A stretch of DNA of 64,000 nt from Podarcis tiliguerta (Eukaryota): assembly GCA_965153285.1 (NCBI GenBank), contig OZ229116.1. One strand, written 5' to 3'. Position 1 is the first letter of the stretch, and each line of letters begins with the position of its first letter. Positions 1-46,446 of this stretch are shown here, in pieces. Both the position numbers and the translations under genes were made by a program. The notes under the pieces are model-generated. The model did no database searches and was not told where the DNA came from. It saw only the letters and a list, made by a program, of their open reading frames with translations.

Positions 1-982
1 TCTCATCTGAACAAAAGACAAACTCTCAGCTGTAGGGGATACAGAATCATAGTCTCTCTGGCGAACAACTGGTCCGATTTTTCACTTGCAGTGAAAAAGG
101 TATTTGTTACAGTCGAAAAGACGAAAGATAGGGAGAAACTCTCACAGAAAGTGCTTTAGCATTTTGCAACGCAGCTTCAATAAATGCATTTAAAACTCTT
201 AGTCATTACCAAGGCAAAACAGACCCTTTCAGAATGTTCATTTTCAAATGCAGACATGGGAACCTCCACCACACAGTGAAGAATGCACAATCTTCAAAAT
301 TGCTTAAGGCCTCCCAGCTCTATTCATTGGCCTTTCCAAAATTAGAACACCACAATCAATGCAGCAGTATTTCTAAGTAGAACCATTGTAACCCAAAGAC
401 CATGGTGTGGCTTTGAATGTCAGGGACCCACATACCAAGTAATTTTTAAGCTGTGGTGTTAAGGCAATTTCCAATAGTGAGACACCCAAGTACAGATTCA
501 CAGAACTCTGATGGACTCAGTGAGTGGACCATTTTTCTTAAGATGGGGTGCCTCATTCTTGATGCACTCCCGACTTATGATCCTTAGCACTTTTTCTTTC
601 CACCAAGCTTTCAAAAACATCAGAAAAACAAATATTTGACAACCTCCCCTGGAAAATCATTTAACTGCTGGATTTATTTTTCGGTTAGAAACTTTTTGCT
701 GTTTGTTAACCTAAATCTAAGTACCAGTAGTTTAAAAGCATTACTTCTTGCCAAATCTCCACAGGGTGAACAACTGCTAATCTTCCCAAGATTCTTCTAA
801 AATAGCCTATCTCCTTGAAGAATCTCAAATCCAACAAAATGCTTTTTAATTTACAAACTGACCACCTTAACACAAAGGCTGCCTGACATTGTCATCGCAT
901 CTGTGACCTCTATCCCTGGAGATTGTTACAGAATCACAGGGTGCTACACGACATAGTTATAGAACAGTATTTCATGCCTCAC

Positions 983-3433
983 CTCGTTTGGCTCTCGGGA
1001 AAGGCTGCAGGCCAGAAGTGTGCCTGTGCTGTTGATATCCTGCTGAGTGACTGGTGTAGCTATCCTGAAATTCCTCCCTTCTGAAAAGTGGGTCTGGCCA
1101 GGCCTTAGGAGGGTAAAAGGAGAAACAATATCTCCCCCAATGAGGGCTGTAGGGAATTCCATTTTTTCCTCCTGGCTCAAGCGTACTGAGAACGTGTCAA
1201 AGTGTCCTCCCACAGGAATAGAGTTCCTACCCTTCAGGTCGCTGGTCCAGCCCACATCTGAGTGTCTTCCTTTCAATCTTTTAAGACACTTCATAGCTAA
1301 AAACACAAAGGCCAGAGCAGAAAGTCCTGAGATTGTGATTAGAGCAATAATGAGTTGCAAGGTCAGGTGAGACAGCCCTTCTTGTTCCATGCTGGACTCT
1401 CTGAGGTCTGCTGTGCCCAACTCATGCTCATGCTCTAGATTAAGAATCAGAGTGGCTGTGGCAGACAGAGGTGGCTTCCCATTGTCTAAGATCTCAACAA
1501 CCAACTCTTGGGAAGGGGCGTCTTGTTCCAGGAGGGCTCGGACGGTTCGGATCTCTCCTGTGAACGCCGAGACTTGGAAAAGGCTTGGGTCTGTGGCTTG
1601 CTGCAGCTTATAAGAAACCCATGCATTCTGCCCAGAGTCTGCATCCACAGCTGTGACTTTGGTTACCAGGTAACCTCCTTGTGCAGAAAAAGGGACTGGC
1701 TGCTGGGCTAGGACCCCCTTCTTGGTTACAGGGTATACAACAAGAGGAGCATTATCATTCTGGTCTATGATGAAGATGGAGACAGTCACATTGGCACAGA
1801 GTGGAGGAGAACCATTATCCTTAGCTTGAATCTGGAAAACCAGTTGCTGGGTTTGCTCATAGTCAAATAAGCAGCCACTGTAGATAGTACCGTTCTCCAT
1901 AACATAGACATAGGAGGAAATGGGCATTCCATTTATGATATGCTCCACTAACGAATAAGACAGGTGTGAGTTCTGCCCCAGATCAGGGTCAAAGGCAGAT
2001 ATAGAAATGATTGGCAGCCCCAGAGCATTGTTCTCAGTTACAAGGGTCTCATATGCAGGCTGTGAGAAGTGGGGTGGGTTATCGTTCAGGTCAGATATAT
2101 TTATAAGGAAGTTTCTTTGACTGGAGAGAGGTGGAGAACCAGAATCCGTAGCTGTGATCATAACTTTGTACTGTGAGATTTCCTCCCGATCTAGGGGGCC
2201 ACTGGTGATCAAAGAGTAGTGGTTCTTGAAGGAAGGTACAATCTGGAAGGGGACATCTGCAGGGAGATGAAGCTGTACTTCTCCATTTTCCCCAGAATCT
2301 GCATCACTGACTCTGAGGAGCCCTGCTGTGGTACCTGGGGGAGCATCTTCTGGTATAGTGGTGGTGAGGGAAGTGAACCTAATGATAGGCTCATTGTCAT
2401 TCACATCCACTACCTCCACTAAGATGTTGCAGTGTGCATCCATGGAAGGTGACCCTTGGTCTTTGGCCCTCACATCAATTTCATACAATGTGTCATCTTC
2501 ATAATCCACACTTCCCAGGACTCTTATCTCCCCAGTCTCCTCATTAAGGCTGAACATTTTCCGGATTTTCTGTGGAGTGTGGCTGCTGAAGGAGTAGGAA
2601 ATTCTCCCATTTGCCCCCTCATCATTGTCTGTAGCTTGTAAATGTATCACAAGGGCCCCCACTGGGGCATTTTCTAGTAGGCTAACTTTGTACACCGACT
2701 GGTTAAAGACAGGTGGATTGTCATTGGCGTCTATGACTGACACGAGAATCTTTGCTGTCCCGGATTTAGCAGGAACTCCTCCATCCAGGGCTGTAAGCAC
2801 CAGGGGGTAGTGCTGCTGCTGTTCTCTATCCAGTGCCTTCTCTAACACCAGCTCAGGTTTGCTGCCACCTTTATGTGACTTAACACTGAGGCTGAATTGT
2901 CCACGTGGACTCAGCTGGTAGGTGCTGACTGAATTCATGCCAACGTCCAAATCTTCAGCACTTTCCAGGGGGAAGCGGGCCCCTGGCATTGCAGACTCTG
3001 CTATCTCCAAATGGGTGAGACTGGTAAGAAAAACTGGGTCGTTGTCATTCACATCCAAGAGCTCAACTTCCACACGATGGGAGGCTGTTGGGTTTGCAAG
3101 TAGGAGCTCCAGATAGAGCAGGCAGTGTAAGCTGGGCCCACAAAGCTGCTCTCGGTCCAGCCGTGCTTTCACGACCAAGACACCATTTGGCACCTTGGCT
3201 TCGAAGTACTTTTCAGCAGAGCCAGCCATGATCTGCAGCTGTCGGGAGACCACCCGGGCAGCATCTAGACCCAAGTCTTTAGCCACATCCCCAACAAAGG
3301 CCCCAGGAGCTAACTCCTCAGGAATCGAGTAACGGAGCTGGGTCATCTCTCCAGCACTCTGGAGAGAGACAGAAACCAAAAGCAAAGCTCTTACTTGCCA
3401 TGGCAGGAGTAGTCTTTCTTCCAGAGACAGCAT
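983..3433 (-). CDS. Protocadherin gamma C-type variable exon (C4/C5-like): signal peptide, EC1-EC6, TM, variable cytoplasmic domain
   Basis: Within ORF 944..3583. ATG at 3433 (MLSLEERLLLPWQV). Six cadherin repeats (DxNDN, LDRE, AxDxG motifs). TM LTLQLIIALITISGLSALAFVFL. Donor GAG|GTGAGG at 983/982, 817 codons. C4-like motifs (FDYEQTQ, NAWVSY, DLRESS) and C5-like motifs (WQV, QLRYS, RVEVE). Lies downstream of C3. Confidence 0.9.
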
Positions 3434-4149
3434 AATGTCGCCAAAATTTCCTCTTCCTTTGCTGGACCTCTGTCCTCTCTGATTCCAGCACAGCCAAGGA
3501 AACAACACAGAATCCCGGGTTAGATCGCGCAAGGGATGAGAAAGCGGCGCACCATCTGCATCTTTTCTCTGTTTTTCTTCCACAGAAAACAGCGGCGGTG
3601 CCTAGTCCGTATCGGAATCAAGAGGGGAGGAGCTTTGTTGTCCATCAAAGCAGATACAGGGCTCCTGGAATCAAGGAAGCGCCTGGCTGTTTGCAATGGA
3701 CCACCCATTCTCCCCCTCCCCAGCTCCAGCAATGGGGTGGGGGAGGTCTTAAAGCGCCCGTGCAAATGTTGAAGAAGAGCTGGGAGCCCATTCGCCAGCT
3801 GTCAGTGACTGGATTTCCCAAGATAATTATATGAACAATAAATCCTATGTCATTACAAGCTTTTGAATTCATTAATGAATGTCACAAGCATTTAAATTCA
3901 ATAATGAACACTCTTTGTTTGGAATGGTTGGGGTTATAAGCTAAACCAGCAAACTGCATATTTTGCAGATTTTTTAAAAAACAGAATGCAACAAACACCA
4001 GTGGCTGCACAATTAAGTGATATACTGCCATTTGCTGGATATAAGATCACGTTAAAAGACCCATTGATTGTCTGCCTGAATTTCCTTTAAATGAATGGCA
4101 TTCAATAACCGATGCAGGAGAGCTCTTCAAAGCTCATTCCCACTATGGC

Positions 4150-5700
4150 CTTTGTTCTCCAAATGGAGTATACTAAGAGTCTCTCCATATTTCCTTTCCT
4201 AAATTTCAGGAGTTTTGCAGCCAGTGCACAAAACAGAATAAACCATGACATCACAAAGGAAATTTTTAAGCCTTTGGAGTCAAGGGTTAGGAGGAGCAAG
4301 GTTAAAAAGAGTTTTATGAGCAAGAACCTGGTCCCTGATGGTCCCAACAAACAGCTTCCATAGTGGAGACAACTAAGATGTTAGGGAAGGGGTCAGGTCA
4401 AGGAGATTCATGGACTTCCTGGAAAAGATGAAAGAAATCTATGAATAGAAGTATTTTCTCTCCCCTAAAGGTAGGCAATGCCTTCTGAATGTTGTCATGG
4501 TAGACTTCAGTGAAGAGCTAGTTGAGGCACACTGCTGTTGAAAAAGTGGTGTCCTCTGTCTTATGTGCTTGCATTAGAAGCACCTGGATTTGCTCCTAGT
4601 GGCATCATGTGTGGATGAGAAGCTGGGCACCTCCCGTGTGTGAGATTTCACAGTAGAAATGAAACAGACAGAATGTATTTACGGTGATGGTCCTTCTCCA
4701 GGTGTGCAGATAATATAGGGCAATGATCACAGGTTGTTCGTATTGCATTTGTTATTCTGTTAGCTAGATTGATCTTCACTGTCCAGAGGAGTATTTGTGA
4801 CAAAAACCTGGTTTTGAAACATGGCCCATGGCTTTAAATGCAAGCATCTTGGGAATACTGGCAATCACTGCTGCTCCACTGCCTCTGGAGTGAGCTGCTT
4901 GCTATGTGCAGAGACATGCTCTCTGGCACGGACAAAGTTTGTTTTGACCAAGGTACAATCTTTTGGGTATTTGGGGACATAAAAAATGTGCACCACCATA
5001 TATTCCATGGCAAAGACGTCCACCTCATTCTAACATTAAACTTATAGCTTCTATTTTATAGGCAAGCCTCCTTTTCACCACAGCTGTGACTTCCCAATAG
5101 TCACATAATGCTGCATTGGGTGGAGTCCCCCTATATACGGAATTGCCATACTAAGTAAGGTGTTGCTCCCATATAGAGCCTTCAGGACCAAGCAATGCTC
5201 AACTTCCTTAATTCCCGGTCAATGTTTTTCAAAGAAGCAAGTTCAGATCTCTTCATATCAACAGACAAGAAAGTCTTAACAAGTAAGTGATGACGGAACT
5301 GCTGCTTGTTCTACTAACCAAGGAATGTTAATTTCTCTGACTCTAAATATCTCTCTGTGTCACAGGCCCTGGAGAGGATAGGAATCGTCAACACCTGTGT
5401 TTCCCACTTCTGCCTGATACATTTCCATGGATCTTTTTACATCCATTTTGACTCCATGAAGGAGCTTGACTCACATGTACACAGGGACTCACAGTTTACA
5501 GGTTCCTTTCAAAGAAGTAAAAATCTATTTCCACAGTTATCATCTCACTAATCAACTATTATATAGCAGTCGTTTGGGGATGCAATTTCCCCTTCTTTGC
5601 TATGATTTCTATGTAACCTAAACTCACCCTTCTAGTCCACTTGGACTAGTAATGGTCAGGGATTGGCACAGTGCCTGGGCAGAGAGCACAGAACAATTAG
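4150..5700 (-). pseudogene. PCDHGC4: Heavily degraded PCDHGC4-like variable exon relic
   Basis: Manual minus-strand translation gives collinear fragments in shifting frames: KEPVNCESLC, MEMYQAEVGNTGVDDSYP, SSSSVITYLL, KNIDRE, EHCLVLKALYGSN, YKFNVR..AME, LSVPES, EQIQVL..QA.DRG, and a TM-like SFVMSWFILFCALAAKLLK. These resemble recalled human gammaC4 segments (KNPIDREALC, LEMYRAEVEIVDVNDHAP, YEFDVR..AME, QARDRG). Contains stops, frameshifts and large deletions. Ends are approximate. Confidence 0.7.
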
Positions 5701-8700
5701 CAGCACCCACAAAACTGCTGCAGGGTGGAAGCACCTTGAGATTCTGGACTCAGGCTACATCAAGAGCAATTTTCTTCAGCTCAAGAGTTTGTATTTGTAT
5801 ATTACAATACACAAAATCACGATATCAAATACATTCCTTGACTTACTGATTCTGCCTTTTCTAATGCCTGAGGATACACATTAAAAAAACTTAAGGATAC
5901 TATTCTTTATAATGAATGTTCTTAATTTGATAATACCAATGTCTTTATACACTCTTGCTTCTCTTGAATTCACCTGCACATAACATACAACTTTGCAATC
6001 CTATTTATTTTCAGAATCCATTTAGTCGCAAATAGCACGCATACTGTACAGATATTTCTAACTAGTTATATACAGTCTTGGTTCACAGAGCTACGAATGC
6101 TGCATAGCAAGCTAAGTGGCTTTGAAAGATGCAAAGCCACTTGGCTTGGTTTAACTAACACACATGAATTATACTACAGGACACTGTGCTAAACTTCACA
6201 GGAAACAGTATTTGATGAGAAGCATTCAAATCAGTTCCTAATGCACACTTGTGCCATTTAACTTAATGGAATGGAAAAGAAATTCTGTATTCTAAACCCT
6301 TGCCTTTAATGAAATCACAATAAATATTTGGTGCAAAGGAAAACATTTCAACAATAGAAATGGGAGACCTTGTAATTAGGATTTGAGAAGAGTGGGGAGA
6401 CTGATATCTCACTTCAAAATCTGAAATGTGGTTGAGTTTGATTGCTTTAGACTTTTTGGACAGTCAATGACTATTTTCTAGGTTCAAGATTGCAGACAAG
6501 CAAGCAAGAGGGAAATTTTAAATGTTGGGGGTCAACATACAGCAAGTTTCATTACATTCTCCCATCCCCCTACACTAAACTCGTTTGTGAAAGGCAGCAT
6601 AAGATCTTGAGTGGGGTCTCTGGGCAGGGATTGTGTATGTTTATTGCTGTCAAATCTCATCCAGTGGCAGATGGCTAGACAGCATGATGTTAGCCAGCTC
6701 TTTCCACTCTTTGTCTTCCATTATCTTTACAGAAAAACAAATATGGTAACTTTCTTGCATTGCTCTAGATTAGATGCATTTAATCATAAAGTTTCTGATT
6801 CTCCTGTGTTGCTTTGGCTGCATATATGCTCATCTTAATTTTCAAAGTGAGATTTCTTCTTTCCAATCTCAACGTCCTATAATTCAGGGATACTTGTTAC
6901 AAACTAGAAGACCAGTGTGTTTGGCAGCAAACCCCACAGCATATGAAGCTGTCGCTTGCATTTATTTCAGTGCACAAAGCGCAGCAGGTCCTGGCCCCTT
7001 GCAACATATTTTCAAGCACATATGATTTTAATAAGTACAGCCTCCTCAACTGAAAATGTAATGGACACACTAAATGTTCACATTGTTTCAGTAATACGTG
7101 AAGGAGCCCTGATTATATCTGGTGAGAGTCTGCCCTGGTTTTGCATATTTTAGAGCCAGATGGCCTACTAATGAAAAGCCTCTCATTCTAACTTTTGTTA
7201 AAAACACTAAAGAAACTAATGGTTCTGCCTGTACAGATTAAGTGTGGGGTCTGGTGCAGCTTTAAGAGCACATCAGCTTAGGGTCATCGTATTGTGCTGG
7301 AATTGCTAATGCCTATTGACAGGACACACACGGACACACAAACACACCTCTCTTCCGCTGTCTCTTTTGCCCGCCCTATTTTTCTGATCATAGTCATTTT
7401 CTTAACAATCTTCCAGACTATGTAATTTTGGGTAGGAAAACGTAGCTAAAACAATTTCCAAGGATCTCAGGGTTCACGTGTCAACCATTTCAAGCAAAGC
7501 AACATGTATGGCAGTTAAGAAAGCCTAATTATGAATTGGTAAGAGCAATGCAACCCTTTTGGCATCAGAATAGTAATAATAAACAATAATAATTTAAATC
7601 TCAACAACAAATTAAAAGTACAGATGAAATCACTAACCAGCTATCGATGAATTAACATCATCATGAGCATCTTCATTATTACATTTATAAGGCTGCCCTA
7701 TAGCAGTTTTCTGGGTGGCTCACAAACAAAACCAAGCAGAATACAGCATATTAAAAACCTATGATGAATTAATTAAAAGTTGATGCACAATTTACAACTC
7801 AAGGTATAAAATAAAAGCAAGCTACATACAAAATATCAATTACTGTTGTGAATGTGTATATATATTTCCCACACAGCCGAAAGGTTAGGTACCACATTGC
7901 TCTAAAACATGTTCGGATATCAGATGCCAAATACTAAATGCCAAATTAACCAGGTACAAAGACTCAAAACCAGTTCACTGAAATGATGGCCCTGAAAGCT
8001 ATTCAACAAACTATCAGGGGTGAGAACTGGCCTGGAGCCAGACACTTTCTGGCAACCTCTCCTTTATTCTTGCAATCTCTGGGCTTCCTGGTCCTTCTTC
8101 TAGCACCCTCTCCACATAAAGCCGCAGTTTATCACTTTACCCTAAAACAACTTCCTGCCTATAGCATCTAATTGTGTAGCAGAATGCACCCTGAGCATGT
8201 ATCTACACTGCAGATTCAAACTGGTGCAGCAATCATTCCCAAGGAATTATGGGAATTGTGCTTCTGGCTCAGTTCTCAATGAGGTTGTACACCTGAGTCT
8301 GGGCTGTACCACTTCAGACTGCAGGTGGGGACTCAAGATGGCTGTATGCTCCTCCATGCCAGCCACCCCACAGTTAGGATCCATCTTCCTGACATCTAGC
8401 TTTGGCAGAGCTCTGAATTCTTTGTACGCAGGAACGTTCAAAGATGTGGGTTTTATCTGCAATCTGAAATGGTACAGCCTAGAAACAGATTAACCATCTT
8501 GGTGAGAACTGGGCCTCTGTGAGGAAATCTTGCAAACAAGACACACAACGTGCTCTCTTCAGAGTGAAAATGTTCATGAATATTTCAAAGGAAACTAGCA
8601 TGTACATACAATCCCAGCAATTAACATATTCACTGCCAGCCTTCTGCTGTTACACAATAACAAGATAAAATGAGTGTCGCACGAGTGCTACCTAATGTTA

Positions 8701-11353: not shown

Positions 11354-13798
11354 CTCAGAGGGCACCAGAAGCCTCTTATTTGTGCTTATTAGCTGGTTAT
11401 ATATTGCAGGGTCACATCTTGTGATAGTGCTCTGGCGGCTCCCCATAGGGCTGGGAGCAAAGGGCATTTTGTACAGAAGTTCACTCTGGCGAGAGTCCGT
11501 GGTGAGGACCTGCTGGTAGAAGTTTGGAGGAGTAAATCCACTCCGCACAGTGTCTATGTGGTTGAAAGGCCCCGGGGTTCTATAAAGGGAGCTTCTGGAG
11601 GCTTTGAATATATCCTTGGATTGCCTCCACTTGTAAAATTTATAAATCCCCACCCCAACCACGGTGACAAAGAAGGCCACTGAGATCAAGATGACAGCAA
11701 TGATTAAATAGAAAGTCAAGTGCTTCTTTGTTTGGGGTGTAGTGGACACAGCAGTCAAGTCTGTCAGTGTCTCCCTAGATGTCTCTGCTACATCTACAGC
11801 AAGGGTCACTGTGGAGGACAAGGCAGGCTCCCCATTGTCTTTTATTAAGATGAGCAATGTTTGCTTGCGAGAATCTTCCTCTTGCAGAGAACGAGCTGTG
11901 CTTATCTCCCCAGAATGCAGCCCCACAGTGAACAGCCCTGGGTCAGTGACCTGAAGGAAGGAATAGGAGAGCCAGGCATTGTAACCAGAATCTGCATCCC
12001 AGGCCACAATTTTTGTGACCATGTAACCAGGGCTGACTGTGGGTGAGATGACTTCTGAGAGCGAAGAGCTGTTGTTTGAGTTTGGGTATAAGAGCCTGGG
12101 TGCATTGTCATTCTGATCTGTGACAAAAACATTGACAGTGATGTTAGTGGCGAGAGGCGGGAGGCCAGCATCACGAACCTGGACCACTAGCCTGAACTCC
12201 ATGGTGCCCTCATGGTCCAAGGGGACTAGGACATATATGCTGCCATTTTCCCGGTTAATAGAAAAATACCTGCCCGCCAAGTCTCCCGAGGACATGGGAC
12301 TATCCAGGATGGAGTAGGAAAGGTGGGAATTCCGGTTCAGATCCGGGTCAGAGGCACTGATGTTAAAGATCAGGGTCCCTGGAAGGTTGTTTTCCTCCAC
12401 ATACACATCATAGGAGGATTGTGGAAATTTAGGAGGGTTGTCATTTACATCAGATACTTTAACCAGTATTTGCTTTTCTGCCATGAGTGAGGGTGTGCCT
12501 GCATCCTGAGCTGTGATGGTGATGTTGTACTCAGAGACAAGTTCCCTGTCCAAGGGTCCTTTGGTCTGTAAGGTATAATAGTTTTTAAGGGAAGAGCTGA
12601 GGGCAAAAGGGATCCCAGAAGGTATAAAGCAATTTACTAGGCCATTATCACCAGAGTCCTGATCCGTGACACTCAGCAACGCAATCACAGTCCCCGGAGC
12701 CGCGTCTTCTGGTATTGGGCTGTACACCGACGTCACTGTTATTTCTGGGGTGTTGTCGTTCACATCCACAATCTCTACCAGCACTTTGCAATGAGCGACA
12801 CCAGGATTTGAACCCTTATCTTTTGCCTGGATATAAATCTCATAAAATTTGGCTTCTTCAAAATCCAGCAACCCCTTCAGCCTCAGTTCTCCAGTGGCAG
12901 AGTCTAGGGCAAAGAGCTGTCGGATTCTGGCAGGGGTGTGACTGCTGAAAGAGTACACAATCTCCCCATTGGGGCCTTCATCCAGGTCGAAAGCTCTGGT
13001 TTGGACAACCAGGGTGTTCAAGGGTGTGTCTTCTTTCAGGCTGGCTCTGTAGATGGACTGGTTGAAGACAGGGGCGTTGTCATTTGCATCCAGGACGTCA
13101 ACCAGCACCTGCAAGCTGGCCGATCGGGGTGGGGTCCCTCCATCCATCGCCGTGAGAACCAGCTGCACTTCCCGCTGCTGCTCCCGGTCCAGCTCTTTCT
13201 CCAGCACCAGCTCCGCATACTTCGTCCCGTCGCCTCGCGTCTGCACGTCCAGCACGAAGTGCGGGTTGGCGCTGAGCTGGTAGGTCTGCAGAGAGTTGCT
13301 TCCCACGTCGGGGTCCTGCGCGCTCTCCAAGGGGAAACGCGCTCCGGGGGTCACCGACTCGCTGATCTCCAGCTTCATCTGCTTGCTCTGGAAAGCCGGG
13401 TCGTTGTCGTTGACGTCCTGGATCTCCACGGTCACGCCGTACAGCACCAGCGGGCTCTCGGCCACCACCTCCAGGCTCAGCGCGCACGGCGAGAGGGCCC
13501 CGCAAAGTTCCTCGCGGTCGATGCGCTCGCTCACCAGCAACTTCCCGCTGCCCAGGTCCACCTCGAAGTACTTTCGTCCGCCGCCCGACACCACGCGGAG
13601 GTTCCTGGCGGGCAGCTGGGCGAGATCCAGGCCCAGGTCGCCCACCACGTTGCCCACCGAAGAGCCCCTGGGCATCTCCTCGGGGATGGCGTAGCGCGTG
13701 GCGGCGAGCGCCCGCTCCGAGACGCCCAGCCACAGCCAGAAGCCCACGACGGGCAGCCATCGCGCTCTCGGCCGGCTCCTTCCCGCGGCGCCTCTCAT
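11354..13798 (-). CDS. PCDHGC3: Protocadherin gamma C3 variable exon
   Basis: Within ORF 11285..13813. ATG at 13798. Six EC repeats. C3-diagnostic cytoplasmic stretch YKWRQSKDIFKASRSSLYRTPGP...LTTDSR...SRQSTITRCDP. Donor GAG|GTAATG at 11354/11353, 815 codons. Confidence 0.95.
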
Positions 13799-29734: not shown

Positions 29735-31240
29735 TGAGTCCACATCCATGACCACTACCTTAGTGACCAGGTAGGTAGCCTGGCTCAGAGGAGCGAGGGG
29801 CCAGCTCTATCCCTATGGAACCATCAGTGGGAGGGGAAGGGTAAAGGATTTGGGGAGCACTGTCATTCTGGTCCAGGATGAAGAGAGTCACTGAGACCTT
29901 GGAGCTGAGTGGTGGGGAACCTCCATCCTTGGCTCTCCATGGAACTTAATCTCCTGGAACTTTTCATAAATGAAAGAACATCAGGCATAAATAACCCCAG
30001 ACAGAATTAATAGAGTTATATAGACAAATTACTGATCTCATTTTTAATAAGTTATTCTCAGTCTGGATAAGTTGTTCTTCATGGACCTCACAACCCTGCC
30101 CCAGGACTGGATAGCTGAGATCCTGGCTGGCTCTCAGAATCTTCCTCATCTCTTTGGGGTCCACAGGCTCAGAGAAGAAGGTGAACCAGGCAGGAACATA
30201 AGAGTTGCCGCAGTGCCTGGCTAGCCGCTGCAGAGGCTACTCATGAGAAGGGATCAAATGGAAACAAGTCCTGCCTGAGATCCTGGAAGGGGTGGATCCT
30301 CTAGCTCCTGTATAAGCTCCAAGTCTAAGTTCCTTCACTGCTGAAGCAACAGCTCCCATCTCCTCTTCAGTCTGCCTGACGCACAGAAACAGCCACCACC
30401 TGGCACCAAACTGTAATGATTGCTGATCGATTTCTTCAGTTTGAAAGGGAGACTGTCAGAACTAAACTCAGGATTTCTCCATGGATTCTTTAATCCTGAT
30501 TTTGCATGTTTAGAAGGGCTTCTGTTGTCATCTTGAGAGAGATTTCTTTGGGGGGTTTTCTTTGGCAGTACAATATGTGAGGATATGGCTAATTAAAGAG
30601 CATAGCCATACACAGGTAACAAGGATAACAAATATTAACAATCTCCATATTGAGCCTGGACTCACTGTATAATGGAGGCTTGTTTAAAGCCCAAGGCACT
30701 GTCATTGCATCAAGAAATGTGACTCAGGTTTTTGAAGTTACCAGACCTTTCTGACTCTCCTCCTTAATATACTGTGAGGAGCGGATGGTGAGCAGCTTCC
30801 TCTTTGTGGTTAAGAATTCTTTCTATCACCAGTTCAACATATCTGGCACCTCCAGCTGCTATTTTCATGTCCAGGAAAAAAATATTCTTTTAGCTGATTT
30901 TGTAGTTCTAGAGAGAATTGGTTTCCAAATCAGTGTCTTGTGCCTTATAGATGGCAAATTGGAGTTCTCTTGCTTTATTCTCACCAACTTTTGTTTCTGG
31001 TTCTTCTGATGAGAACCTGGGCCCATTGTCATTAATAGCTATCATTTCAATTTTCATTGACCCCTCCACATATAACCAAAAAATTCATGACACACTTCAT
31101 GGCCACAAATTCCTCTCCATGTATTTTGTCTGTGGTGTGTAAATGACCAGCTTCAGAGTAAAATACTGAGACCTATATTGTGAAAACTATGTACACCTCT
31201 CTCTGAAAGATCTCTTATATCCAGTCTCATCTCATTTGTG
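29735..31240 (-). pseudogene. Degraded protocadherin gammaA-like variable exon
   Basis: EC1 remnant LDIRDLSERGVH..SQYFTL..GHLHTTDKI (about 31230-31100). EC1/2 KIEMIAINDNGPRFSSEE...AQDTDLETNSL*NYKIS* (about 31055-30890). EC5/6 tract at 29756-29960 very similar to 48651-48845, with a 4-bp GTAG duplication. Stops, deletions, and non-cadherin sequence at about 30060-30500. Confidence 0.88.
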
Positions 31241-32949: not shown

Positions 32950-34128
32950 TACTCTGCTTTATATTCACTATGCAAGAAAGGTCATTATTTGATTTGAGCA
33001 TTATCAGTTTGGACATTGTCCTGTGCAAATGTCAGAAAAAGTGAATGCATTACCTATCTCTATCTCTATCTCTAATCATCTATATCATTTGTATCTATAT
33101 CTATATCTGTATCATTCTGCAAATTCATCTTGGATGAATGGCAGATTTTTTCAAAAACCTATGTTTATTCTAAGATAGGTTTCCTTTCATTTGGAGCTCA
33201 AAAGTCAAACCTTCCTCAGGTGAAGTACAAAATGCAACATGAAAAGAATCCCAGGCTCACTAGATTTTTACTCCATTCCCATAAAAGGTCGCTGGAATTC
33301 CTCGAACATACTGGGTTGAAATGAAGTTACCTTTTCTCTTATGAAGGTTTTATTCCATATTCTGATTGTAAAACATGCCACAGGAAATGTGAACATGGAT
33401 GGCTCTCTTGCTAAGGAGCATATTTCATAGTCTGTAAGTTCTTTTCCAGGTGCTGTGATCCCAGCACACATATGATCCACACAATATCTGTTGTTGACAC
33501 ATGAGCAGCCCAGACTATTCTCAATCACAGCCATGTGGTTGTGTGAACCAGCAATGTGTGAACCAGCAATAAATGCAACCAAACAAAATGTCCATGATAA
33601 GGGAATATCATAAAATGCTGACTTCTATATTTGTGTATTACTAGTTCACAACATGTAGTTATATTATCCATGTCATCATGGGTGCCTTTGTTGTAAAGCT
33701 TCTGCTAGGATGGCATATGTGTGGGAGAATGCTATTCTATTAGATGCTATTAATTTTCAGGGATAGAAAACCATATGGATAGAATTAATCTACTCAACAG
33801 ATTGGTAAAAACCAAGGGAAATTATTCAATCTATAGCTACATTGATATAGCCAGATCACAACACAGGCAGAAAAATAATATGCTCAGCTTAATTTAGGAA
33901 AGGACTCACTTGTAAGAGTGCCATGAATCTAAGTACCAATTGGATGTGCTAAGTAAGCATGTTCAGAATGCCTCAGTGGCATGCCATTCAGGCAGGTCTA
34001 AGTACTGGTTCTTCCCATATAAAGCATCAGACACTTGAGCAGATAATGATCTAAAAACAGTAGCTCATAATACCTATGAGGAAGAAAGATGTAGTGCCTA
34101 CATCACAGTTTCTGAAAGCAAAGCTTAC

Positions 34129-36545
34129 CTGCTCACCAACCTCCTCTTTGGCACTGGCATCCCCACAGTTGCCATCCACAAGAACCACCTGAGAGCTATC
34201 ATTGCATAGCAGGTTTTCTGCCACCTGGATATGGGGTTTCGGGAAAGAGATCTGCTCTTTCCTCATCTCTGATGATAGGCAGAGTTGGTAGGAATAAGGT
34301 AAAGTTCCTTCTTCATAGTTTGGTGGAAATATGACCTGCGCCTTAGAAAAAGCATTAGGTTCGAAGCATTGGAATAATTTGGGATTTCCTGATTGTCGAA
34401 GTTTCATGACAATGACCAGTATCACCGTCAGGAGGAATAAAAATGAGATCAATGCCAAAGCCAGCACCAAGTAAAACTGGAGGTCAGAATGATGCTCTGT
34501 GTCACTGGATTGCCTAGTCATTTCCGGAAGTGCCTCTTGGAAGTTCTCGGCAACCACGAGGTTGAGGACCACAGTAGCTGAGAGCGGAGCCTTCCCATTG
34601 TCCTTCACCAAGATGACCAGCTTCTGTTTCACAGCATCTTTCTCCAGAAGGGCTCGTGACGTCCTGATCTCTCCCGTGTGGGTCCCAATGGTGAAGAGGG
34701 CCGGCTCCGTGGCCTGCAGCACTTGGTAGGAGAGCCAGGCATTGTGCCCAGAGTCCGCGTCCACAGCCACCACTTTGGTCACTAGGTAGCCTGGCTCTGC
34801 CGAGTGAGGAACCATCTCAAACAAGGCAGAGCCCTCAGCGCCTAGAACAGGATACAGAACGCGAGGGCTGTTATCGTTCTGATCCAAAATGTACACCCAC
34901 ACGGTGGCGTTGTTGCTGAGAGAGGGAGAGCCGCCATCTTGGGCCTTCACTTGGATCTGAAACTCCCGGAATTGCTCATAGTCAAAGGAGCGCTGTGCAT
35001 AGATAGTTCCCGTCTCAGAGTTGATGGAGACGTAAGAGGAGAGAGGCAGCTCCGCCATGTTGCTGTTGAGGATGGAGTAAGTGATACGTGAGTTGCGGTC
35101 CAGATCCGGGTCTGAGGCTTTGATGGAGAAAATGGAGGCACCTGAGGGATTGTTTTCAGGCACAAAGACACTGTAGGTTGATTTTTCAAAGGCAGGGGGG
35201 TTGTCATTGATGTCTGAAATCTGCAGGGAGATGGTTTTGTTGGAGGAGAGAGGGGGGCTACCTTTGTCGGTGGCCGTGATGGTGATGTTGTATCCTGAGG
35301 CTTTTTCTCTGTCCAAAGGACTATCTGTGAGAATTTTGTAAAAATTGTTAGATGAGGATAAGATTTTAAATGGTACATTACCTTGTAGATAGCATGTAAT
35401 TTTTCCATTTTCTTCAGAATCTTTATCCTTTACATTGATAACAGCAATTACTGTCCCAGGAACAGAATCTTCAGGAACTGGACTAGATAAGGAGGCAAGA
35501 ATGACCTTTGGGCATTGTCATTCTCATCCAGAACCTTTATTTCTATCTTACAGTGAGCTACTAACCCTCCTCCATCTCTTGCTTTTATTGCCATAGTGTA
35601 CTTTTCTGTTTCCTCAAAATCAAGATTCTCTGTATTCATAATTATTCCATTTTGTGCATCTATCCTAAATTTCTTGTAGACTTTTTCTGCTACTTTACTG
35701 AAACTATAACTGATCTGACTATTTGAACCTTCATCTCTATCAGAGGCTGCAACCTGAAGTATGGGAGACCCAGCAGGGGAATTTTCCCTCACACTGACCT
35801 CATAGACCTCTTGAATGAAGACCGGTGGGTTGTCATTGGCATCTGTGACATTAATCCATATCTGCGCAGTCCCAGTTTTTCTGGGTTCACCCCCATCCAG
35901 GGCCGTAAGGATCAGCTGAAGGGAGTGCTCACTTTCCCGATCCAAAGGTTTCTGCAGCACCAATTCTGCATATTTATGTCCATCCAGACTATCTTGAACC
36001 TCCAATGTGAAAAATTGATTTTGGCTTAACTGGTAGTCATGAAGGGAATTCTTCCCAATATCAGGATCTTCAGCTTTCTCGAGGGGAAATCTGGCACCTG
36101 GCAATGTGGATTCAATTATTTCAAGCCTTATATTGTCATCCAGGAAATGCGGTACATTGTCATTAATGTCCTGAATTGCTACACTTACATGGAAAACATT
36201 TAATGGATTTTCAACTAAGGCTTCAAAATTAATGAAGCACTGTGTGCTCTCTCTGCACATTCCCTCACGATCTATCCTCTCATTCACATACACATTTCCA
36301 TTTTCTGCATTGATACTGAAATATGGTTTTTTACCTTCAGAAATGATATGCAGGTTTCTAGTCTTCAGTTCTCTGGCATTCAGTCCCAGATCCTTGGCAA
36401 GATTTCCCACAAAGGACCCCTTTGCCATCTCCTCAGGGATGGAATAGTGAATTGACTCTGAGATCTCCCAGCAGAAGGAAGACATTAAGAACAGAAGCAA
36501 TGCCCTGAAGCTTTCTCTAGGAATAACTTCCATCTTCATCTCCAT
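34129..36545 (-). pseudogene. Protocadherin gammaB-like variable exon (Y') with a single 1-bp frameshift (young pseudogene/allele or assembly indel)
   Basis: ORFs 35448..36545 and 34051..35316 join if one C is restored in GAC AAT GCC (C)CA AAG (G run at 35510-35512 on +). This gives 806 open codons. Donor CAG|GTAAGC at 34129/34128. CSE intact. Confidence 0.88.
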
Positions 36546-37729: not shown

Positions 37730-37905
37730 ATCCCCACAAACTGTGAGATGGGAGCACCACTGAAATTCACACTCCCCGACTCAACCAGCTGAGAATTTCT
37801 CCATCTGTGCAACCTGATGGCCAGTAACACAAAGAGGAAGATGAGGAACAAGCAGGAGACAAAAGCCACTGCAAGGACCAGGTAGAAGGTGAGGTTAGAC
37901 GGAGG
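37730..37905 (-). pseudogene. Isolated gammaA-type TM/juxtamembrane fragment
   Basis: [61 protein letters not shown] part nearly identical to about 48290-48374. No recognisable cadherin sequence on either side. Confidence 0.88.
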
Positions 37906-38774
37906 AGCAGATGATGGAACTGTCTGTGCTAACTTAGAGAAACATAGAGAGAGGAAACAAAGTCAAATTTCAAAACTATGTTAGAAAAAAAGAAGGTTCA
38001 GCACCAGAAGAGAGATTTATGGTGAACATTTCCAGTTGTAGGAGCAATTCAGACATTGTATAGAACATTGTGCCGTATCATTCTTTGGATATTTTCATGA
38101 AAAAAGTTATAAAACAATCTATTAAGGAGTCTTTAAGTCTGGGGTACATTGTCTTAGATTAGTTTGCTTTCTCTTTCTCTTTCCTACAATATGATATTTT
38201 GATTCAGTGGGGGAACACTGGTGGGAGCAACACTGAAAGAAGAGTGGCCCAGATAAATTGCATGGAATTCATTCTCTTGTTGATCAGGAGGGGTGGAAAT
38301 GTGAGAGGAAAGAGCACCTTCTCAGGCCAAAACACTCCCTTATATACACATCTCCTAAAAACACAGAAACCTATGCTTGCACCATATAACTTGCTGCTTC
38401 TGGTTAGTTAATCAGTTAATCCTACTTCATTACTCATAAGCACTGATAAATTAAGATCCTCACTACAAGTAACACAGAGAAGGATGTATAAGAGAGCATT
38501 TTTAGATTACAATTCTGAAAGTGTGTTTAGGGGCAACACGTTTATGTTAAATGCTCTTAAGTATCTGCTATGAGAGAATGGCCAAGATTGGGATGAGATG
38601 GTGGTTTCATTGGTTTGATGTTGCCTCTGATTCCTGGAATAGGATGGGTGTAGTAATCACGTGATCTGATACTTTGCTGACATAAAAATGCTAAGTTTTG
38701 TCATAGTGCATTCAAGTTGTATGCAAAAATTACTACAGTAAGTCTGGAACGCATCTGGAGAACAATTGCAAATC

Positions 38775-44571: not shown

Positions 44572-46446
44572 AACTACACTCATAATGTTTGGTTATGAAT
44601 AGATTTCATTTATTTTCTAACTGGCCTCAATCCAGCTCCCTTTCAAAATGGGATTGGTGGCTCTGGCAGATTTTCATTATTCCCCTTACACATACATGCA
44701 AAAGAAGCACAAACTATCCCTTTTTAAATGCAATGGAAGGCCCTTTGAGATACTAGGTGTGGATAAACTTCTGGATAATCCCCCCCCCCCACTTCATTCA
44801 GTTCCCTTCAGCAACAAAGTGAAGAATGGGCTCTCTTTTCCCTGCTACTCTTCTCAGTAACCTCAGTTCATGGTAGATGTGGGCAGAGATGGCAGTTAGA
44901 GTTTTGCAGACATATTCAAAGGAAGATTCCTCTTTTGCCTTCCTTGTCAATAATGGGTGTAGCTTCTTCATGCACTAGGACTTTGACTGAGGAGCTCCCA
45001 GAAGAGGCCAGTGGCGCTCTCCAAGGTCTTCAGCAAAGGAGTCAGAAGACAGCAGAGGAACACAGAGGCTAGAGCTACTTTCAGTGGCTTTCTAGATAGT
45101 ACTGTGAAAATTGAGATTGCATCTGGGACTGTAGTTTCACTTACATGAAGATGATACTCATATCCACTTTTTATTGGTAATATGGTGATATTGTTTTTAT
45201 ATATACTTGTGTACAGTTATAACAAGTATATTTAACGTTCCCCCATCATATTACATTTCTGTGTTGCACAAATGAACTGTGCCATTAATTTGAAGCAGAG
45301 AATTGAATCCTGTCATGGTAAACAGTGTGGGGTGGTTTCATGGTTTGAGAGTTTCTTTATCACCAGTAGTTGCTGATCCTTGGTGATACTTCCAAGTGAA
45401 GAGCCTTCCACCATTTCCTCAGGGAAAAAGTGGCGAATCTTCAAGGAGTGGTAATGAGTTGACAATGTTAACAGATAAAAGAGACAGCGTGTGATAAAAG
45501 ATTTGTCAGTCTAAGGTGTTAGAAGGGAGATCTTTAGATTCTGAGGTATAAATAGGACCAATGTGAGCAATTTTGTTAGCAGGTTTTATTGAAAATATGC
45601 CACCGTGGTCTTTAGGAGGTAGCTTGCTTTGGGTGGTGGGGATAGATTGAGTTGTAACTTCCTGTCAACAGCTAAAACAATCCTGCGTGGCACCCCCATG
45701 CAATTTCAGCGAACAAAGAATCTCTCTTTGCTGCTCCTAAGACAAATCATAGAAATGCAAACGGGCCTTGTGCCATGTTCAGACATATTCAACAAAAGCC
45801 TGACATTCTTTATAAAGTTATCTAACTCCATCCAGAAATGAAAGATTTTCATTGCTCTCATAGCTTCTCTCATTCATATTGCAGAAAGTTTTTTTTTTAA
45901 TCATATAAAATACAAGGATGATAAATATACAATTACATATGGCTTGAGCTAACTGGAGGCAACTATAGGAGGACACACATCAAAACCACACCCCCCCCCC
46001 CCACCGTTGGGACTTTGCAGAGTTATGCGGCCACTGCCAGATCCACAGCCCTGCTGTTCACATTAGCCATAGCAGAATATGGAGATCCAGAATGACCTGG
46101 TCCGAGTCTGTTGCATGACTGCAGCAAGACTGGCTCAGGATACAGCAGTCACTGGGCCAGCTCAGCCATGTCCCTGCCCTCAGAATGCCCCATTTGGGGC
46201 TCTCCATTGGCTCCTGCACATCCAGCAGGTAGAAGGTGATGTCAGCTGAGCTGAGAGAGCCAGGCAGGGGGACCTCTCTGCCTAATCCAACTCTGTTCCC
46301 TGGCTCAGTGGAAATGGGGGTTGAATTGCTTTGTGTATCATCACTGGCTTATTAAAATACCTGTCTGACCTCTTTAGACTATCAGATGATGCCAAATACT
46401 ATTGCTCAAAATGTGAAATAAATTTGCCTTGTTATAATATCCTACT

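What the first reader, a model, noticed from the sequence alone, without database searches (positions are those of the whole stretch)
983..3433. Intact C-type exon with mixed C4 and C5 character: candidate substitute for gammaC4
Seen: the N-terminal half resembles recalled C5 (WQV, QLRYS, RVEVE.LD.NDN, FSLSVK). EC5 to the cytoplasmic region resembles C4 (FDYEQTQ, NAWVSY, DLRESS..EG.S.LTL, VRLSQEEKMEF..GG). It lacks the C5 cytoplasmic motif YMEVTLRPTDSQ. It sits immediately downstream of the C4 relic. Inference: an additional C-type paralog without a one-to-one mammalian ortholog may supply the survival function, which in mouse involves the C4 variable cytoplasmic domain.
Basis: partly seen in the sequence, partly recalled or inferred. 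Interest (0 to 1): 0.7.

Follow-up and report, generated by a model that had tools for sequence, protein, structure and literature searches.

The report
Lizard protocadherin beside a dead gammaC4
This lizard nerve-cell adhesion gene is an already described reptile paralog, not a C4/C5 hybrid, but it sits next to what is likely the decayed remnant of gammaC4, the one family member mice cannot live without, so lizards likely keep their neurons alive by another route.

Summary
The exon (983-3433, minus strand, 817 codons, phase-0 GT donor) is real, intact and under purifying selection (pN/pS about 0.19). It is not a C4/C5 mosaic. It is the ortholog of anole 'gamma c4' (80% identity), which Jiang 2009 already found to lack a human ortholog; both ectodomain halves group with the same coelacanth protein. 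No intact lizard exon scores like an ortholog of mouse gammaC4; this one ranks 4th of 5. A badly decayed cadherin exon at 5150-5508, between C3 and this exon, is detectable without using C4 and matches mouse gammaC4 best: likely the true gammaC4, lost in this lineage. Substitution by this exon is not supported. Its tail lacks the cysteine cluster and the core motif that mouse gammaC4 shares with C5 and turtle c7, and no snake, bird or crocodilian ortholog was found. The gene is known; the relic and the mislabelling of this gene as gammaC4 were not found in print. EC5-to-TM likeness to C4 and splicing remain untested.

The parts
983..3433 (-). Intact Pcdh-gamma C-type variable exon (signal peptide, EC1-6, TM, 97-aa variable tail); ortholog of anole 'gamma c4' / coelacanth gamma22 lineage
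977..982 (-). 5' splice donor GTGAGG, phase 0, compatible with constant exon 1 at G000:C7:84120670
   Evidence: sequence; spliced database models P0001, P0231, P0243; no junction seen
3434..3794 (-). Likely promoter / 5' leader of the exon (CpG o/e 0.51); contigs of run X1 begin at 3794
   Evidence: inferred, the run is only guessed to be RNA
5150..5508 (-). Core of a decayed C-type exon (EC1-EC2, frameshifts, stops, deletions); likely the true gammaC4 pseudogene
   Evidence: (found without any C4 sequence); residue comparison by eye with mouse gammaC4
4760..4936 (-). Possible EC3-EC4 remains of the same relic (three short in-frame, in-order matches to mouse gammaC4)
   Evidence: by eye; not above shuffles
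11354..13798 (-). Intact gammaC3 ortholog, upstream neighbour
   Evidence: 434 bits to mouse gammaC3 against 297-313 for the other four

Best explanation
This exon is an intact, conserved gamma-protocadherin C-type gene orthologous to anole 'gamma c4', a paralog that mammals likely lost, and the decayed exon 1.7 kb upstream is likely the lizard's true gammaC4, so the two lineages likely kept different members of an old C3-C4-X-C5-c6-c7 series. Shown: one ancestry along the whole ectodomain, purifying selection, five intact C-type exons and none that scores as gammaC4. [quoted passage not shown] It carries E78 together with R344, the pairing that strengthens the gammaC4 trans dimer in vitro, so it is predicted to bind better than gammaC4. 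Its tail was likely rebuilt after the split from coelacanth and then conserved in lizards, so it likely recruits its own partner. The survival signal is more likely carried by the ancestral tail motif still present in C5 (and c7), or is not confined to one isoform in lizards.
For: Identity: 80% over 817 aa to DAA06627.1, the anole gamma c4 of Jiang 2009, which that paper calls orthologous to coelacanth gamma22 and without human ortholog. Trees without mammalian C4: 9 lizard and 2-3 turtle sequences form one clade, sister to one Latimeria protein in EC1-3 (95/95) and EC4-6 (SH 87, quick tree). EC1-3 bits against mouse C3 / C4 / C5: C3 434/371/325, X 297/368/341, C5 309/390/460, c6 313/374/331, c7 297/356/316; true orthologs lead by about 120 bits, none leads for C4. 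Cluster scan of 314 kb without N: 49 cadherin ORFs, 5 of them C-type. Selection: 22 synonymous, 13 non-synonymous differences, pN/pS 0.19, p 1e-6. Relic: 30.3 bits against a maximum of 28.3 in 25 shuffles and 22.6 in 17 natural controls, colinear with EC1-EC2, single copy; the gammaC4-type EC1 motif pattern has 2 matches in 1.46 Gb, one in the relic, the other non-cadherin. In four of the five blocks fixed (77 columns; one poor block dropped) my count by eye is 28 identities to mouse gammaC4 against 22-24 for six other C-types. Tail: 1 cysteine in the first 35 residues against 3-4 in C5, c6, c7 and Latimeria; the core pattern is in C5, turtle c7, Latimeria and mouse gammaC4 but not in X.
Against: No tree contains mammalian gammaC4, and its EC5-TM was never seen, so a closer tie of X to gammaC4 in that part is open. 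The 7jgz scores include some signal from its fourth repeat, so only differences between queries count. The relic is weak: phmmer, tblastn, nhmmer (-2.2 bits) and a plain frameshift alignment (within shuffle range) missed it; the first version of the decay model was beaten by GC-rich controls before the null was corrected. The motif pattern was widened to fit the relic. The 28 versus 22-24 margin is small. No splice junction was seen, and one contig reads through the donor. Mouse C5 carries the shared tail motif yet does not rescue C4 knockouts, so motif likeness does not predict function.
Confidence: 0.7

Rival explanations
1. This exon took over the gammaC4 survival role after gammaC4 decayed.
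For: Adjacent to the relic; tail 64-77% identical across lizards with 35 of 97 positions invariant in 9 sequences; weak register match of its LS..EK.EF core to the mouse gammaC4 core (by eye, 3 of 16 identities against 5 of 16 for C5).
Against: Tail lacks the cysteine cluster and the shared core pattern. No snake, bird or crocodilian ortholog among the listed hits; turtle copies appear only as stitched or broken models while sea-turtle C5, c6, c7 are intact. These absences come from capped lists.
Confidence: 0.15
2. This exon and mammalian gammaC4 share ancestry in the 3' half: mammalian gammaC4 arose by an in-frame fusion or conversion joining the 5' part of the relic's lineage to the EC5/6-linker of this exon's lineage.
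Against: The mammalian side is recalled only; the tails differ strongly; DLRESS is in 1 of 15 orthologs.
Confidence: 0.1
3. This exon is simply the fast-evolved gammaC4 ortholog, as database names say, and the relic is another lost paralog or chance.
For: It is the first intact exon after C3; NCBI names several orthologs gamma-C4 or gamma-C4-like; 7jgz is its best clustered-Pcdh hit of equal length.
Against: About 50% identity to mouse gammaC4 EC1-4 (by eye), paralog level; ranks 4th of 5 lizard C-types against gammaC4; Jiang 2009 tree; the relic matches gammaC4 best.
Confidence: 0.05

Closest known systems
Anolis carolinensis protocadherin gamma c4 (Ac-gamma-c4, DAA06627.1; Jiang et al. 2009, PMC2764143)
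   Same: 80% identity over 817 aa, same position between c3 and c5 in a five-gene c3-c7 series, same lack of a human ortholog
   Different: Only the species; the text of that paper does not mention a decayed gammaC4 beside it (its figure of 14 pseudogenes could not be seen) and predates the finding that gammaC4 is essential
Mouse/human protocadherin gammaC4 (PDB 7jgz; PMC6957209; PMC12559083)
   Same: C-type gamma exon, next gene after C3, E at position 78
   Different: About 50% identity in EC1-4, no ortholog-level score; R instead of S at 344; tail lacks the cysteine cluster and core motif
Protocadherin gammaC5
   Same: Same C4/C5/c6/c7-side clade, WQV in the signal peptide, 58-60% identity in EC2 and EC6
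   Different: A separate intact C5 lies 1.4 kb downstream of the donor; 341 against 460 bits; tail 17% identical
Latimeria protein XP_014343526.1 (probably gamma22; that label is inferred)
   Same: Sister to this clade in both ectodomain trees; 49-64% identity per repeat
   Different: Keeps the ancestral cysteine cluster and tail core; tail 15% identical

Membership tests
Clustered Pcdh-gamma C-type variable exon | Single 2.4 kb exon coding signal peptide, six cadherin repeats, TM and variable tail | tested here: met
Clustered Pcdh-gamma C-type variable exon | Lies 3' of the A/B array and 5' of three constant exons; groups with C-types | tested here: met
Clustered Pcdh-gamma C-type variable exon | Spliced to constant exon 1 | tested here: inconclusive
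   In-phase GT donor and spliced database models; no junction in 4 runs with very low coverage
Anole gamma c4 / coelacanth gamma22 orthogroup | Reciprocal best match and one clade in both ectodomain halves | tested here: met
gammaC4 ortholog | Ortholog-level EC1-3 score lead, as C3 and C5 show (about 120 bits) | tested here: not met
   368 bits, 4th of 5
gammaC4 ortholog | Tail with cysteine cluster and QL.S...I(K/R)(F/Y).(D/E)V core | tested here: not met
gammaC4 ortholog | E78 without a basic partner at 344 (weak trans dimer) | tested here: not met
   E78 present but R at 344 (alignment; mutant data)
gammaC4 ortholog | EC5-TM similarity and carrier-dependent EC6 | not testable with these tools
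   gammaC4 EC5-TM not seen in any call
gammaC4 ortholog | Tail rescues gammaC4-null neurons | not testable with these tools
   assay described
gammaC5 ortholog | EC1-3 score lead and C5 tail motif | tested here: not met
   341 against 460 bits; real C5
Relic as gammaC4 pseudogene | Cadherin-derived, same strand, colinear repeats, single copy | tested here: met
   modest margin over controls
Relic as gammaC4 pseudogene | Closer to gammaC4 than to any other paralog | tested here: inconclusive
   28 of 77 identities against 22-24 (by eye); motif pattern; no tree

The most novel reading that the evidence does not exclude
Lizards lost gammaC4, the only gamma-protocadherin essential in mouse and constrained in humans, and this exon, sharing its EC6-linker ancestry with mammalian gammaC4, rebuilt its cytoplasmic tail and took over the neuronal-survival signal with a different motif: a natural swap that would expose the unknown gammaC4 partner.
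Probability: 0.15. Interest if true: 0.75.

Novelty: new member of a known kind. Interest (0 to 1): 0.4.

Why it matters
In mouse gammaC4 alone is necessary for neuronal survival and its 102-aa tail is sufficient in vitro, with no known motif or partner. If lizards carry only a fossil of it, that essential role is not an amniote constant. Reptile tails (this exon, C5, c6, c7) then become a ready-made panel for the existing rescue assay, and point to a short core shared by gammaC4, C5 and c7. It also means database 'gamma-C4' labels in lizards mark a different gene, which matters for cross-species expression work and for judging conservation of PCDHGC4 patient variants.

Tried and rejected
Obtaining a mammalian or other true gammaC4 protein for trees: three homolog searches, the representative search, cluster members and a metagenome pattern scan (0 matches) gave none; motif scans of the stored proteins were blank; paper supplements showed only the first 400 residues and the tail. 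Relic detection by tblastn, phmmer, nhmmer and BLOSUM frameshift alignment failed. Atlas search gave only generic protocadherin clusters. Sequencing-run search: no RNA holder listed. Only one read-laying was obtained, so the splice junction stays open. No earlier scan notes. Rejected: C4/C5 mosaic; C5 identity; assembly gap hiding gammaC4 (no N in 314 kb); relic as a repeat; second motif match at C7:70.16 Mb as a cadherin. Noonan 2004 (PMC534663) was not held. No structure or complex prediction was run.

Full report
Setting. The window is G000:C7:84134001-84198000, the 3' end of a protocadherin-gamma cluster on the minus strand. The exon's protein is 98% identical to a Podarcis raffonei model, so this is a lacertid lizard. 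In gene order: 43 A/B-type ORFs (three partial), C3 (13798-11354), a 7.9 kb gap, the exon in question (X, 3433-983), then outside the window intact C5, c6 and c7, and constant exons 1-3. The 314 kb scanned hold no N and no sixth C-type ORF. This is the c3-c7 arrangement described for the anole.

The exon. ATG 3433 to donor GAG|GTGAGG at 983 gives 817 codons, in phase with constant exon 1. Against a related organism, the 35 listed differences inside the exon are 22 synonymous and 13 non-synonymous, pN/pS 0.19, p 1e-6 (40 of 86 table rows were shown, and alleles and contig errors are not separated). Full-length orthologs in eight other lizards are 77-83% identical. Expression is not settled. Contigs of run X1 (RNA only by guess) cover 911-3794 at depth 8-10 and little of the flanks. 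Two true RNA runs gave 8 and 4 reads. No junction appeared, and one contig reads through the donor. Spliced models exist in several lizards, but they are models.

What it is. The anole ortholog clusters with DAA06627.1, 'protocadherin gamma c4 isoform', 80% identical over 817 aa. Jiang 2009 states that this gene has no direct human ortholog, is orthologous to coelacanth gamma22, and that differential loss shaped the group. My trees agree as far as they go: lizard and turtle X form one clade, sister to one Latimeria protein in EC1-3 (95/95) and EC4-6 (SH 87; quick search; one fragment left out of each tree). There is no switch of partner along the gene, so no mosaic. No mammalian gammaC4 could be included. 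Instead each lizard C-type EC1-3 was scored against solved mouse chains. Against C3 the lizard C3 scores 434 and the others 297-313. Against C5 (4zpo; the gammaC5 label is recalled, and supported by the lizard C5 match) lizard C5 scores 460 and the others 316-341. Against gammaC4 the scores are C5 390, c6 374, C3 371, X 368, c7 356. True orthologs lead by about 120 bits; nothing leads for gammaC4. The N-terminal half is thus not C5-like, and X is not gammaC4 in EC1-3.

All are present, but only WQV is shared with lizard C5. DLRESS is in 1 of 15 and VRLSQEEKMEF in 2 of 15 stored orthologs. NAW[VI]SY and an LR.S-type linker are in 15 of 15 and unique among lizard paralogs. Whether mammalian gammaC4 has these two could not be seen, so a shared EC6-linker ancestry stays open.

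The relic. Standard searches miss it. A frameshift-tolerant neutral-decay model built from 27 non-C4 protocadherin sequences puts its best hit in the gap at 5508-5150, minus strand, colinear with EC1-EC2. In the first run GC-rich controls scored higher. With a composition-neutral null the relic scores 30.3 bits against at most 28.3 in 25 shuffles and 22.6 in 17 natural stretches. The part 4200-5100 is not above shuffles. In four of the five blocks that model fixed (77 columns; one poor block dropped) I count by eye 28 identities to mouse gammaC4 against 22-24 for X, C3, C5, c6, c7 and Latimeria. MEMYQAEV faces gammaC4 LEMYRAEV. Further in-order matches (KRS in EC2; AVEQQ-stop; FQNQ...PLDSEDQSS-stop) also favour gammaC4 but were picked with it in view. 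A pattern for the EC1 motif, widened to admit the relic's Q, has 2 matches in 1.46 Gb: the relic and one non-cadherin site. The region is single copy. I put about 0.8 on the relic being gammaC4.

Is X the substitute? In mouse the gammaC4 tail is necessary and sufficient for survival in vitro. Its sequence starts with five cysteines and has a QLGSEDPIKFVDV core. A pattern for that core (drawn up with gammaC4, C5 and Latimeria in view) matches lizard C5, turtle c7, the Latimeria sister and many fish or amphibian C-types, 32 stored proteins in all, but not X, c6 or this lizard's c7. X has one cysteine in the first 35 tail residues; C5, c6, c7 and Latimeria have 3-4. So X's tail was likely rebuilt, and it is now conserved (64-77% among lizards; 35 of 97 sites invariant). 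X has E78 like gammaC4 but R at 344, the change that strengthens the gammaC4 trans dimer from above 500 to 112 uM. No snake, bird or crocodilian X was listed, and turtle X appears only in stitched or broken models while sea-turtle C5, c6 and c7 are intact; these lists are capped, so this is a lead. Against my reading: mouse C5 has the shared core and still does not save gammaC4 knockouts, and X's tail is clearly under constraint.

Novelty. The gene and its lack of a human ortholog are published. A gammaC4 pseudogene in lizards, or the point that reptiles may lack the essential isoform, did not turn up in five searches of an open-access library. Papers seen: PMC2764143, parts 1-4 of 5 of the text and the text of its supplement (figures not visible, so a marked pseudogene could have been missed); PMC4978886, PMC7811963, PMC6957209, PMC13096477 and PMC8901172, passages; PMC12559083, passages and two supplements (cells cut at 400 characters); PMC12337331, supplement search only; PMC11975030, no supplement readable; PMC534663, not held.

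Verdict. X is a known, ordinary but misnamed C-type gene. The useful result is the neighbour: likely the fossil of gammaC4. Interest 0.4.

Noticed in passing
window 34051-36545 (-): A gamma-B exon split into two ORFs (365 and 335 aa): young frameshifted pseudogene or assembly slip.
   Followed up: no
window 29736-31226, 37785-37910, 45375-45440 (-): Further decayed gamma variable-exon fragments.
   Followed up: no
window 5277-6038: Contigs of run X1 and a few single-cell reads of X21 cover the relic's 5' end; three reads share a 13-letter loose end at 5671 resembling a template-switch tag (recalled). Possible residual or antisense transcription.
   Followed up: no
window 850-983: One contig reads through the donor to about 885, and an ATTAAA lies at 850: a short form without constant domain is possible.
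   Followed up: partly
G000:C7:84124061-84129968 (L001): c6 and c7 are highly conserved in birds and turtles (c6 EC1 90% to a crow protein) yet have no mammalian counterpart; good candidates for the survival role.
   Followed up: partly
P0031, P0048, P0029, P0102: Turtle orthologs of X occur only in stitched or gapped models; the Caretta one has degenerate calcium-binding motifs, suggesting decay in turtles.
   Followed up: partly
L007 (G000:C7:84809633-84812473): Intact delta-subcluster variable exon, the best-scoring paralog of X in this genome.
   Followed up: partly
G000:C7:84221740: A truncated gamma-B ORF of 506 aa upstream of the window.
   Followed up: no
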